Origin: Escherichia phage AV123
Reading direction: 5' to 3' (one strand)
Sequence record: OR352953.1
DNA: 64,000 bases
The notes beneath the pieces were generated by a model. That model ran no database searches and was not told the origin of the DNA. It saw nothing but the letters and a program-made list of their open reading frames with translations. This document shows, piece after piece, positions 11,483 to 12,240 of the stretch. Position 1 is the stretch's first letter. Every line of letters starts with the position of its first letter. Made by a program: the position numbers and the translations under genes.

Positions 11483-11965
11483 ATGGAACAACAAAAAGAT
11501 AATACTATTGCAAAATTTGCTCGTCCAGAAGTAATGGTTGAAATTGATCTGGATGAAGGACGCAGTGTAAAATTTAGAGTTCTCAAGTGGAGTCCAACTA
11601 AAGTTTTTGAAAGGATTCCAGAACTAGGTAGTGTACTAGCTGTTCCTATGACAATGTATAATACTGCTCTTATGTCAGCAGACGAAGATCTAGAAGCTCG
11701 TATTGCTATGGCGCTGATCCAATTATTCAGTGGTCTGGAAGAAAAAAACTTAGCCGCATTCTTACGTAAAATTTTAGATGAAGTTTACACAGAAGCAGGT
11801 CACAGTGTTTCCGATAATTTTGATGAATTGTTTTTTGCTCACCCAGAATTAGTTGTTGACTTAGCCGCAAAAGTTCTTGAGGTGAACTATGCCCCTTTTT
11901 TCAAACGAGGTTTCGGAAAACTGTTGACCCAATTTCAAGGAATAGAGACTCTAGCGAAGAGTTAA
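11483..11965 (+). CDS. tail assembly chaperone (G-like, unshifted product)
   Basis: 160 aa ORF between the tube and tape measure genes. Contains a -1 slippery heptamer near its 3' end. Confidence 0.55.
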   Translation: MEQQKDNTIAKFARPEVMVEIDLDEGRSVKFRVLKWSPTKVFERIPELGSVLAVPMTMYNTALMSADEDLEARIAMALIQLFSGLEEKNLAAFLRKILDEVYTEAGHSVSDNFDELFFAHPELVVDLAAKVLEVNYAPFFKRGFGKLLTQFQGIETLAKS

Positions 11966-12240
11966 GTCCGGCAATTAAATCAGCAATTGAAATTGCCTCA
12001 CAAACCCTTAGCTTGACATGGTATGAAGTAATTCTTTGTAAGGTAGTTAAGAATACCTCCGAAACCTTGTCCTCGTTAGATAATTACGGTGTAGATTATC
12101 TACTTAAAATTTATGAATATTTAACATTTGAAGACTATGTACAAGATCTTCACGTTAAAGATGCGGATATTAAACGTGGTCAACAGAGAACAATAAGAGA
12201 ACTGGATACGGCTATGAAAAAATTAATTCCAGATTCATAA
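11483..12240 (+). CDS. tail assembly chaperone frameshift fusion (GT-like); joins ORF 11483-11965 to the -1 frame ending at 12240
   Basis: The -1 frame has no stop between 11881 and 12240. The track's 12013-12240 ORF is the tail of this frame. Arrangement is the canonical chaperone frameshift just upstream of the tape measure gene. Confidence 0.45.
11896..11902 (+). promoter_or_regulatory. programmed -1 ribosomal frameshift slippery site (T_TTT_TTC)
   Basis: Heptamer TTTTTTC in the zero frame (cct ttt ttc = P F F). The -1 frame is open from 11881 to 12240. Confidence 0.5.

What the first reader, a model, noticed from the sequence alone, without database searches (positions are those of the whole stretch)
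11483..12240. Programmed -1 frameshift in the tail assembly chaperone gene
The ORF ends at 11965, but the -1 frame is open from 11881 through 12240 and a slippery heptamer T_TTT_TTC sits at 11896-11902 in the correct phase. This gives the G/GT-type chaperone pair found upstream of tape measure genes in many tailed phages. The predicted fusion is about 252 aa.
Basis: partly seen in the sequence, partly recalled or inferred. Interest (0 to 1): 0.4.

Follow-up and report, generated by a model that had tools for sequence, protein, structure and literature searches.

The report
Tail chaperone -1 frameshift, phi92-like phage
This phi92-like E. coli phage almost certainly makes a short and a long form of its tail assembly chaperone by a programmed -1 ribosomal slip at T_TTT_TTC, an ordinary and well-known phage device that public records of this phage group fail to annotate.

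Summary
The ORF 11483-11965 (160 aa) carries T_TTT_TTC at 11896-11902 in X_XXY_YYZ phase. The -1 frame is open from 11881 to 12240, and the fusion is exactly 252 aa. The window is about 99.3% identical to Escherichia phage phi92 over this tail module. The two ORFs are phi92 gp132 (Pfam Phage_TAC_15) and gp133 ("hypothetical"). They lie between the tube gene and the tape measure gene.

All 49 relatives examined keep the same in-phase heptamer and a -1 extension of 93-127 aa. They span Stephanstirmvirinae, Vequintavirinae and the Felix O1-like phage Moogle, and give 26 distinct sequence contexts at down to about 28% protein identity. The flanking T and C of the heptamer never change, although the amino acids they help encode do. 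Conserved residues and a coding-type substitution pattern in the -1 frame start upstream of any possible start codon of "gp133". That ORF has no conserved start codon or ribosome-binding site.

No downstream RNA structure is conserved. An SD-like GAGG/GGAGG lies 13-14 nt upstream in 22 of 26 contexts. The homologous site is already annotated as a frameshift in Moogle and was described in 2025 for related families.

Verdict: real and ordinary, a new member of a known kind whose value is mainly in correcting annotation.

The parts
11483..11965 (+). Short chaperone ORF (TAC-N, G-like), 160 aa; homologue of phi92 gp132
   Evidence: ORF list and translation. Pfam PF21822 Phage_TAC_15 at 80.8 bits against a cut-off of 22. 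phrog_3840 'tail assembly chaperone' at E 4.4e-54. The locus is 99.3% identical to phi92, where this ORF is gp132.
11896..11902 (+). Slippery heptamer T_TTT_TTC in X_XXY_YYZ phase (0-frame codons TTT 11897-11899 and TTC 11900-11902)
   Evidence: It is invariant and in phase in 49 of 49 loci, which give 26 distinct contexts. The preceding codon varies (CCT Pro, TGT Cys, TCT Ser, AGT Ser) but always ends in T. The following -1 codon varies (CAA Gln, CAC His, CGG and CGA Arg) but always starts with C.
11893..11899 (+). Overlapping second in-phase heptamer C_CCT_TTT; a slip here gives the same protein. Present in all Stephanstirmvirinae-type loci examined, absent in Vequintavirinae
   Evidence: C_CC.U_UU.U is listed among the shift-prone motifs in E. 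coli in PMC4066793.
11902..12240 (+). -1 frame extension of 112 codons plus TAA. It contains what phi92 annotates as the separate gene gp133 (TTG 12013-12240)
   Evidence: phrog_16039 'unknown function' matches fusion residues 178-249. Invariant residues R143 F144 R145 A168 A172 lie upstream of the annotated TTG start, which encodes the likewise invariant L178. Codon-position diversity in 11966-12012 is 0.34/0.29/0.67, the same pattern as the annotated part at 0.38/0.25/0.62.
11879..11882 (+). SD-like GAGG 13 nt upstream of T_TTT_TTC and 10 nt upstream of C_CCT_TTT; a possible stimulator of the slip (inferred)
   Evidence: GAGG, GGAGG or GGAG lies at 13-14 nt in 22 of 26 distinct contexts, including Moogle. 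It is embedded in the conserved L-E-V/I-N-Y codons, so its conservation may be protein-driven. It is absent in 4 contexts.
11908..11916 (+). -1 frame codons AGG TTT CGG (R143 F144 R145), which overlap 0-frame GGT TTC (G-F). This is the most conserved stretch downstream of the slip site
   Evidence: GGTTT is invariant in 20 of 20 aligned Stephanstirmvirinae and Vequintavirinae sequences. R-F-R is invariant in alignment A1. Moogle has H-F-Q at the protein level without GGTTT, so the constraint is read as a protein constraint in the -1 frame.
10960..11439 (+). Context: tail tube gene (phi92 gp131)
   Evidence: The phi92 cryo-EM paper PMC13450770 identifies gp131 as the tube protein.
12260..14239 (+). 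Context: tape measure protein gene (phi92 gp134), 659 aa, with a strong GGAGG ribosome-binding site
   Evidence: phrog_16051 at 1330 bits.
11443..11462 (+). Context: hairpin plus T-run between the tube and chaperone genes, terminator-like
   Evidence: The phage Paula record annotates it as a terminator.

Best explanation
The gene at 11483-11965 encodes the tail assembly chaperone of a phi92-like myovirus.

Most ribosomes stop at 11965 and make the 160-aa short form. A minority slip back one base when the two tRNA-Phe occupy TTT-TTC within C_CCT_TTT_TTC (11893-11902). Both tRNAs re-pair on TTT-TTT. Translation then continues in the -1 frame from CAA (11902) to the TAA at 12238-12240 and gives a 252-aa long form. 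The long form has the same N-terminal chaperone domain (residues 1-140), a variable linker and a conserved C-terminal domain of about 75 aa. The ORF that public records call 'gp133' is therefore not a gene of its own but the tail of this long form.

By analogy with lambda gpG/gpGT (inferred, not shown here), the short form would coat the tape measure protein gp134. The C-terminal domain of the rare long form would recruit the tube or tube-initiator proteins, so that the tube polymerises around the tape measure. Neither form would remain in the virion.

The slip appears to need no downstream RNA structure. An SD-like GAGG 13 nt upstream may stimulate it, but this is speculative.
For: Shown from sequence:
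- Phase, open frames and the 252-aa product are as stated.
- The upstream ORF is a chaperone family member, and the gene order is sheath-tube-chaperone-tape measure.
- 49 of 49 related loci keep T_TTT_TTC in phase with a -1 extension of 93-127 aa. These are 11 GenBank loci of Stephanstirmvirinae and Vequintavirinae, 37 IMG/VR loci and Moogle. Fusion identity falls to 28-32% within A1.
- The X position (T) and the Z position (C) of the heptamer never change, while the amino acids they contribute to vary: P/C/S before and Q/H/R after. That indicates a constraint on the nucleotides themselves.
- The residues invariant across the junction are N135 Y136 F139 F140 | R143 F144 R145, followed by A168 A172 L178 W180.
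- The stretch called 'intergenic' (11966-12012) shows third-position-biased diversity in the -1 frame, like the rest of the extension.
- The first possible start codon of the downstream ORF lies anywhere from codon 29 to codon 84 of the extension. Only 3 of about 80 candidate starts have a weak SD-like motif upstream, and none of these is the first start in a Stephanstirmvirinae locus or conserved across loci. Neighbouring genes have GGAG or GGAGG.
- A profile of the fusions aligns across the junction with Moogle's GenBank-annotated joined 'tape measure chaperone': hhalign probability 95.8%, E 6.9e-9.
- In the AlphaFold model of the short form, confidence drops at residue 141, which is where the slip occurs, so the slip sits at a domain boundary.

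From the literature:
- H_HH.U_UU.Y heptamers are among the most efficient in E. coli (PMC4066793).
- The same kind of -1 frameshift at a GTTTTT motif was proposed for Vandenendeviridae and Andersonviridae (PMC12846349).
- gp132 and gp133 are not among the proteins built into the phi92 virion structure (PMC13450770).
Against: - No protein-level evidence is available here. Neither the 252-aa product nor its ratio to the short form is shown.
- No conserved downstream stimulatory structure was found: the z-scores are -0.23 and +1.07, and RNAalifold predicts 0 pairs. Efficiency may therefore be low.
- The SD-like element is missing in 4 of 26 contexts and overlaps conserved codons.
- A one-base insertion by RNA polymerase on the T6 run would give the same protein, so sequence alone cannot fully separate the two mechanisms.
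- The roles assigned to the two forms rest only on analogy with lambda.
- The fold search did not recover a known chaperone structure.
Confidence: 0.88

Rival explanations
1. The same long protein is made, but by transcriptional slippage. RNA polymerase adds one extra U while copying the T6 run (11896-11901), so a fraction of mRNAs carry the two ORFs in one frame and the ribosome does not slip.
For: The invariant element is a homopolymeric T6 run. No downstream RNA structure is conserved. The product would be identical (P-F-F-Q...). A paper cited (Vladimirov et al. 2022, reference 76 of PMC12846349; title only, not read) argues for a non-ribosomal mechanism in the chaperones of T4-like phages.
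Against: - From general knowledge, six T is short for efficient polymerase slippage in E. coli, which usually needs runs of about 8-9 or more.
- The run is always placed NNT TTT TTC (X_XXY_YYZ phase) and never NNN TTT TTT, although both encode Phe-Phe. Phase matters for ribosomes, not for the polymerase.
Confidence: 0.07
2. There is no recoding. gp133 is a separate small gene (TTG 12013-12240, 75 aa) that is translated independently, and the heptamer and the frame overlap are incidental.
For: This is how phi92 and every other record of these two subfamilies opened here (10 of 10) annotate the locus. PHROGs holds such ORFs as families 16039, 10409 and 8811.
Against: - In this window the only candidate start is TTG, with no SD (upstream sequence cctcacaaacccttagc).
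- The first possible start in relatives lies anywhere from codon 29 to codon 84 of the extension, and in several relatives it would remove invariant residues.
- Invariant residues and a coding-type substitution pattern extend upstream to the heptamer.
- The -1 frame is never interrupted between the heptamer and 'gp133' in 49 loci.
- All indels in the linker are multiples of three.
Confidence: 0.03
3. It is a chance coincidence or a sequencing artefact: one gene split by an indel in the T-run.
For: Homopolymer runs are common sites of sequencing errors.
Against: The same T6C arrangement with two frames is found in 26 distinct contexts from independently sequenced genomes and metagenomes. The 0-frame tail after the heptamer is also conserved: G143 F144 are invariant among the short forms. 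The expected number of chance in-phase TTTTTTC sites in the overlap is about 0.003.
Confidence: 0.01

Closest known systems
Lambda gpG/gpGT and the conserved tail-chaperone frameshift of dsDNA phages (Xu, Hendrix & Duda 2004, Mol Cell 16:11, as cited in PMC8785237)
   Same: Two overlapping ORFs lie directly upstream of the tape measure gene. [quoted passage not shown] No strong downstream structure is needed.
   Different: The heptamer is T_TTT_TTC, whereas lambda uses G_GGA_AAG (from memory). The host phage is a 148-kb myovirus with a sheath. The chaperone belongs to a different sequence family (Phage_TAC_15). An SD-like motif lies 13 nt upstream. The C-terminal domain has no detectable sequence similarity to any annotated T domain.
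Citrobacter phage Moogle (Felix O1-like) 'tape measure chaperone', annotated with a translational frameshift (GenBank KM236239; PMC4319497)
   Same: The site is homologous...LEANFGSFF|RGKHFQK in Moogle against ...LEVNYAPFF|QTRFRK here. Both have the same T_TTT_TTC in phase and the same GGAGG-type motif 13 nt upstream. The whole fusion aligns by profile, with probability 95.8%.
   Different: The Moogle proteins are shorter (133 and 212 aa). The sequences are too diverged for tblastn. In Moogle the join is annotated and the C-terminal part falls in phrog_4963, labelled 'tail assembly chaperone'. In the phi92 and rV5 groups the join is not annotated and the C-terminal parts sit in PHROGs of 'unknown function'.
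TAC-N/TAC-NC -1 frameshift proposed for Pseudomonas phage Adele and other Vandenendeviridae and Andersonviridae (PMC12846349, Dec 2025)
   Same: The argument and the architecture are the same: a 'hypothetical' ORF between the chaperone and tape measure genes is really the C-terminal part of a frameshift product, and the motif is an invariant poly-T (GTTTTT). That paper finds these families to be related to Stephanstirmvirinae and Vequintavirinae.
   Different: In the passages of that paper retrieved here, the frameshift analysis covers Vandenendeviridae and Andersonviridae only, not Stephanstirmvirinae or Vequintavirinae. In the phi92 group the base before the T-run is C, giving the double heptamer C_CCT_TTT_TTC, rather than G.
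P2 E/E+E' and Mu tail chaperone frameshifts (myoviruses; from memory, not checked here)
   Same: A -1 frameshift in a small gene between the tube and tape measure genes of a contractile-tailed phage. As I recall, P2 also uses a T-rich heptamer.
   Different: No sequence similarity was detected here, and no comparison was run.
E. coli dnaX -1 frameshift (from memory; SD stimulators are discussed in PMC4066793)
   Same: A slippery heptamer with an internal SD-like sequence 10-14 nt upstream.
   Different: dnaX also needs a downstream hairpin, and its slip product is shorter. Here no hairpin is conserved and the slip product is longer.

Membership tests
G/GT-type tail assembly chaperone with programmed -1 frameshift | The gene lies between the major tail (tube) gene and the tape measure gene | tested here: met
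   Tube gene 10960-11439, chaperone 11483-11965, tape measure 12260-14239. The identities of gp131 and gp134 are confirmed by the phi92 cryo-EM paper.
G/GT-type tail assembly chaperone with programmed -1 frameshift | The upstream ORF belongs to a tail assembly chaperone protein family | tested here: met
   Pfam PF21822 Phage_TAC_15 at 80.8 bits (cut-off 22); phrog_3840 at E 4.4e-54.
G/GT-type tail assembly chaperone with programmed -1 frameshift | A second ORF overlaps the 3' end in the -1 frame and extends to just before the tape measure gene | tested here: met
   The -1 frame is open from 11881 to 12240, with an 85-nt overlap. The tape measure gene starts at 12260.
G/GT-type tail assembly chaperone with programmed -1 frameshift | A slippery heptamer X_XXY_YYZ lies in the correct phase inside the overlap | tested here: met
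   T_TTT_TTC at 11896-11902 and C_CCT_TTT at 11893-11899, both in phase. Both belong to the H_HH.U_UU.Y class, rated efficient in E. coli.
G/GT-type tail assembly chaperone with programmed -1 frameshift | The downstream ORF lacks its own translation start | tested here: met
   There is no ATG or GTG before codon 105 of the extension in this window. The only early candidate is TTG at 12013, without an SD. Candidate starts in 19 relatives are not conserved in position.
G/GT-type tail assembly chaperone with programmed -1 frameshift | The arrangement is conserved among diverged relatives, beyond protein-coding needs | tested here: met
   49 of 49 loci and 26 distinct contexts keep it. The synonymous or variable-residue positions X and Z are invariant. 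A coding signature is present in the 'intergenic' stretch.
G/GT-type tail assembly chaperone with programmed -1 frameshift | Both a short and a long protein are made, in a fixed ratio, and both are needed for tail assembly | not testable with these tools
   This needs proteomics, reporter assays and genetics. No paper in the searchable library reports it for phi92-like or rV5-like phages.
G/GT-type tail assembly chaperone with programmed -1 frameshift | The chaperones are absent from the finished virion | not tested
   Literature only: gp132 and gp133 are not among the proteins modelled in the phi92 virion (PMC13450770). Absence from a cryo-EM model is weak evidence.
G/GT-type tail assembly chaperone with programmed -1 frameshift | The N-terminal domain has the fold of solved tail assembly chaperones | tested here: inconclusive
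   [not shown]
dnaX-type -1 frameshift with flanking stimulators | An SD-like sequence lies 10-14 nt upstream of the heptamer | tested here: met
   GAGG at 11879-11882, 13 nt upstream. It is present in 22 of 26 contexts, but it is confounded with the conserved L-E-V codons.
dnaX-type -1 frameshift with flanking stimulators | A stable hairpin or pseudoknot lies 5-9 nt downstream | tested here: not met
   The minimum free energy is -15.6 kcal/mol, z -0.23. A local hairpin has -5 kcal/mol, z +1.07. RNAalifold on 20 relatives predicts 0 pairs. There is no Rfam match above threshold.
Transcriptional slippage recoding | A long homopolymer run (about 8-9 or more; from general knowledge), with no requirement for reading-frame phase | tested here: not met
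   The run is T6 in all 26 contexts, always in one phase, and is never extended to T7.

The most novel reading that the evidence does not exclude
The phi92 and rV5 lineages may use a structure-independent -1 frameshift whose efficiency is set by two local features instead of a downstream hairpin or pseudoknot. One is an internal SD-like GAGG/GGAGG fixed 13 nt upstream. The other, in Stephanstirmvirinae, is a tandem double heptamer C_CCU_UUU_UUC that gives the ribosome two consecutive chances to slip into the same product. If so, this would be a compact, portable frameshift cassette, conserved from Felix O1-like to phi92-like phages.
Probability: 0.25. Interest if true: 0.3.

Novelty: new member of a known kind. 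Interest (0 to 1): 0.2.

Why it matters
The main value is in annotation.

- In every phi92-, phAPEC8-, rV5-, PVP-SE1- and phiTE-type record opened here (10 of 10), the long chaperone form is missing and its C-terminal part is filed as a separate 'hypothetical protein'.
- Three PHROG families of 'unknown function' (16039, 10409, 8811) are truncated pieces of this one product.
- All 45 homologues recovered from a database of 5.8 billion proteins are the short form, 151-175 aa. No fusion of about 250 aa is on record among them.

Correcting this assigns a function to one more ORF in a phage group that is widely isolated for therapy. It also names a likely assembly partner for the tape measure protein in phi92, whose virion structure has just been solved. 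It does not change what is understood about frameshifting or tail assembly.

Tried and rejected
- **Downstream stimulatory RNA structure.** Single-sequence folds of 11896-11985 and 11903-11950 are no better than shuffles. Per-sequence folds of 23 relatives show no common hairpin. RNAalifold on 20 relatives gives no pairs. Rejected.
- **Rfam.** The search of 11400-12400 found only two sub-threshold matches on the minus strand: SraG at 36 bits against 50, and a CRISPR repeat at 25 against 35. Treated as chance.
- **Invariant GGTTT after the heptamer as an RNA signal.** Moogle keeps the -1 frame aromatic motif (H-F-Q) without GGTTT. The constraint is therefore read as a protein constraint under double coding.
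- **AlphaFold on the 252-aa fusion without an alignment.** pLDDT was 45, which is unusable, so it was not taken to a fold search.
- **Fold search of the N-terminal model.** No named chaperone was found. Inconclusive.
- **PDB sequence search.** Nothing relevant.
- **Literature on this frameshift in the phi92, phAPEC8 and rV5 groups.** Nothing specific was found. The rV5 genome and proteome paper does not mention 'frameshift' or 'chaperone'.
- **Vibrio phage S4-7, the most distant tblastn hit.** It has the -1 architecture but with A_AAT_TTT instead of T_TTT_TTC. It was not pursued and is not counted among the 49.
- **A second large protein search for the C-terminal domain.** Not run, because the verdict does not depend on it.
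Full report
**1. What the window is**

The 4.9 kb around the finding is 99.3-99.4% identical to Escherichia phage phi92 and other Justusliebigvirus genomes (Stephanstirmvirinae). In phi92 coordinates the genes are as follows:

| phi92 gene | Role | Window coordinates |
|---|---|---|
| gp130 | sheath | 9495-10901 |
| gp131 | tube | 10960-11439 |
| gp132 | the ORF of the finding | 11483-11965 |
| gp133 | small 'hypothetical' ORF, annotated from TTG | 12013-12240 |
| gp134 | tape measure | 12260-14239 |
| gp135 | tube initiator | 14355-15065 |

A 2026 cryo-EM study of phi92 assigns gp130, gp131, gp134 and gp135 to these roles. It does not list gp132 or gp133 among the virion proteins (PMC13450770).

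**2. The observation**

- The ORF 11483-11965 encodes 160 aa.
- TTTTTTC lies at 11896-11902, with its first T at codon position 3, so the 0-frame reading is CCT|TTT|TTC, i.e. T_TTT_TTC.
- The -1 frame has a TGA at 11878-11880 and is then open to the TAA at 12238-12240.
- Slipping at the heptamer joins residues 1-140 to 112 further codons, giving 252 aa.
- A second in-phase heptamer, C_CCT_TTT (11893-11899), overlaps the first. A slip there yields the identical protein...A-P-F-F-Q....

**3. Is it more than chance?**

TTTTTTC is not common here. It occurs 7 times on the + strand and 18 times on both strands, against 27.8 expected from shuffles. About 0.003 would be expected among the 28 in-phase positions of the overlap.

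Of the seven + strand copies, this is the only one that is in phase near the end of a gene and followed by a long open -1 frame. Among 75 ORFs of at least 100 aa, this is the only one at a gene's 3' end with a long -1 extension and an in-phase heptamer in the overlap. The one other ORF passing that scan is nested inside a larger gene. The remaining frame overlaps are ordinary short gene junctions.

**4. What the upstream ORF is**

It matches Pfam PF21822 (Phage_TAC_15, tail assembly chaperone) at 80.8 bits against a curated cut-off of 22. It also matches phrog_3840 'tail assembly chaperone' at E 4.4e-54.

The -1 extension matches phrog_16039, a 72-residue family of 'unknown function', over fusion residues 178-249.

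**5. Comparative evidence**

Eleven GenBank relatives were fetched:
- Stephanstirmvirinae: phi92, KP13-26, phAPEC8, KP13-16, phiWec190, Tr1.
- Vequintavirinae: Av-05, SalP219, rV5, phiTE, Mydo.

A further 37 loci came from IMG/VR.

[quoted passage not shown] In every one the -1 frame then runs 102-127 codons to just before the tape measure gene. With Moogle, whose extension is 93 codons (section 7), that makes 49 loci and 26 distinct 69-nt contexts. Fusion identity to this window falls to 28-32% in Vequintavirinae.

Four observations argue that the nucleotides themselves, and translation of the -1 frame from the heptamer onward, are under selection.

(a) The codon before the run is CCT (Pro), TGT (Cys), TCT (Ser) or AGT (Ser). 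The amino acid changes but the last base is always T. The -1 codon after the run is CAA (Gln), CAC (His), CGG or CGA (Arg). The residue changes but the first base is always C, even though TTC and TTT are synonymous in the 0 frame.

(b) In the alignment of reconstructed fusions, the invariant residues run straight across the junction: N135 Y136 F139 F140 | R143 F144 R145. They continue with A168, A172, L178 and W180. R143-A172 lie upstream of the TTG that phi92 annotates as the gp133 start, and L178 is that TTG itself.

(c) In the 47 nt that records treat as intergenic (11966-12012), nucleotide diversity by -1 frame codon position is 0.34/0.29/0.67. This is the same third-position bias as in the annotated part (0.38/0.25/0.62). 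All length differences in the linker are whole codons.

(d) The downstream ORF has no conserved way to start on its own. The first ATG, GTG or TTG falls anywhere between codon 29 and codon 84 of the extension in different phages, usually with no SD. Neighbouring genes carry GGAG or GGAGG.

**6. Stimulatory elements**

No downstream structure is supported.
- The 90 nt from the heptamer fold no better than shuffles (z -0.23).
- A local hairpin of -5 kcal/mol has z +1.07.
- RNAalifold on 20 relatives predicts no pairs.
- Rfam has nothing above threshold.

Upstream, GAGG at 11879-11882 lies 13 nt before T_TTT_TTC. GAGG, GGAGG or GGAG is found at 13-14 nt in 22 of 26 contexts, including Moogle. That spacing is the one reported to stimulate -1 slippage in E. 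coli dnaX (my knowledge; PMC4066793 searched 6-17 nt upstream). However, the motif is built from the conserved Leu-Glu-Val/Ile codons and is lost in four contexts. I therefore rate it as a possibility only.

The invariant GGTTT after the heptamer codes G-F in frame 0 and R-F-R in frame -1. Moogle keeps an aromatic motif (H-F-Q) without GGTTT. I therefore read it as a protein constraint.

PMC4066793 lists H_HH.U_UU.Y heptamers among the most efficient in E. coli. That class includes both U_UU.U_UU.C and C_CC.U_UU.U.

**7. What is already known**

The general device was described for dsDNA phages by Xu, Hendrix and Duda in 2004 (cited in PMC8785237).

[quoted passage not shown] I located its slip site. 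It is T_TTT_TTC in phase, within ...LEANFGSFF|RGKHFQK, with GGAGG 13 nt upstream. The profile of the phi92/rV5 fusions aligns with the Moogle fusion across the junction: probability 95.8%, E 6.9e-9. The site is therefore homologous.

A December 2025 paper makes the same case for Pakpunavirus and other Vandenendeviridae and for Andersonviridae, at an invariant GTTTTT motif. It also notes that these groups are related to Stephanstirmvirinae and Vequintavirinae (PMC12846349).

I found no paper in the searchable library that describes the frameshift in phi92-, phAPEC8- or rV5-type phages. None of the 10 annotated records of these two subfamilies that I opened has a joined CDS. All 45 database homologues of the fusion are short forms of 151-175 aa.

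The C-terminal parts of rV5-, PVP-SE1-, phiTE- and KP13-16-type extensions fall in PHROGs 10409, 8811 and 16039, all 'unknown function'. Moogle's falls in phrog_4963, 'tail assembly chaperone'.

**8. Mechanism and rivals**

The best reading is tandem slippage of two tRNA-Phe from UUU-UUC to UUU-UUU, giving a minor 252-aa form beside the major 160-aa form.

The division of labour is inferred from lambda and not shown here. In that model the short form coats the tape measure, and the long form's C-terminal domain recruits tube or initiator subunits. In the AlphaFold model of the short form, confidence collapses from residue 141, exactly at the slip point. This fits a domain boundary followed either by a short disordered tail or, after a slip, by a linker and a second domain.

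- **Transcriptional slippage** on T6 would give the same protein. It is disfavoured by the short run, by its fixed phase, and by the never-extended C at position 7. I give it 0.07.
- **Independent translation of gp133** is disfavoured by section 5, points (b) to (d). I give it 0.03.
- **Artefact or chance** is excluded for practical purposes by 26 independent contexts. I give it 0.01.

**9. Structure attempts**

The fusion without an alignment gave an unusable model, pLDDT 45. The short form with 17 sequences gave pLDDT 65 and pTM 0.60.

**10. Verdict**

The feature is a typical, strongly conserved tail-chaperone frameshift. It is homologous to one already annotated in Felix O1-like phages and recently described in neighbouring families, but it is unannotated throughout the phi92 and rV5 groups. 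It is a new member of a known kind and of low surprise. Its main value is correcting annotations and PHROG labels.

Noticed in passing
window 11443-11462: An 8-bp hairpin (AAAGGGCAGAAATGCCCTTT) followed by ATTTTT lies between the tube gene and the chaperone gene and is readable on both strands. The phage Paula record annotates it as a terminator. A stronger terminator-like hairpin follows the tape measure gene at 14245-14268. The first could lower chaperone and tape-measure transcription relative to sheath and tube.
   Followed up: partly
GenBank MG065645, MG065656, MG065650 and others; OP562383; OK210077: Some records are labelled 'Campylobacter phage', 'Acinetobacter phage vB_AbaM_ABPW7' or 'Serratia phage KKP_3264'. 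Over this locus they are 98.9-99.6% identical to this window, or match it exactly as E. coli phAPEC8-type phages do. The host labels look doubtful or reflect contamination.
   Followed up: no
L001 1547-1639 (phi92 FR775895.2 66790-66882), about window 10446-10538: The phi92 record annotates a 'Hypothetical tRNA' inside the sheath gene. ARAGORN finds no tRNA anywhere in window 9400-14400. It is probably a spurious annotation.
   Followed up: partly
PHROG families 16039, 10409, 8811: Three PHROG families labelled 'unknown function' are N-terminally truncated pieces of the C-terminal domain of the chaperone frameshift product in Stephanstirmvirinae and Vequintavirinae. The Felix O1-type counterpart (phrog_4963) is labelled 'tail assembly chaperone'.
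   Followed up: yes
L012 1303-1309 (Vibrio phage S4-7, KX507046): The most distant tblastn relative keeps the chaperone and -1 ORF architecture upstream of its tape measure gene. Its in-phase heptamer is A_AAT_TTT rather than T_TTT_TTC, and the overlap is longer (145 nt).
   Followed up: no
window 11440-11565, minus strand: There is a sub-threshold Rfam match to the SraG sRNA: 36 bits against a gathering score of 50, E 3e-4 for the 1-kb search. It overlaps the terminator-like hairpin and the start of the chaperone gene. It is probably chance.
   Followed up: no
[not shown]
   Followed up: no
window 53701-53707 and 54857-54863: Two further TTTTTTC copies are in X_XXY_YYZ phase within small + strand ORFs of 99 and 113 codons. 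Here the -1 frame stops after 30 and 16 codons. Whether these ORFs are real genes was not checked.
   Followed up: no
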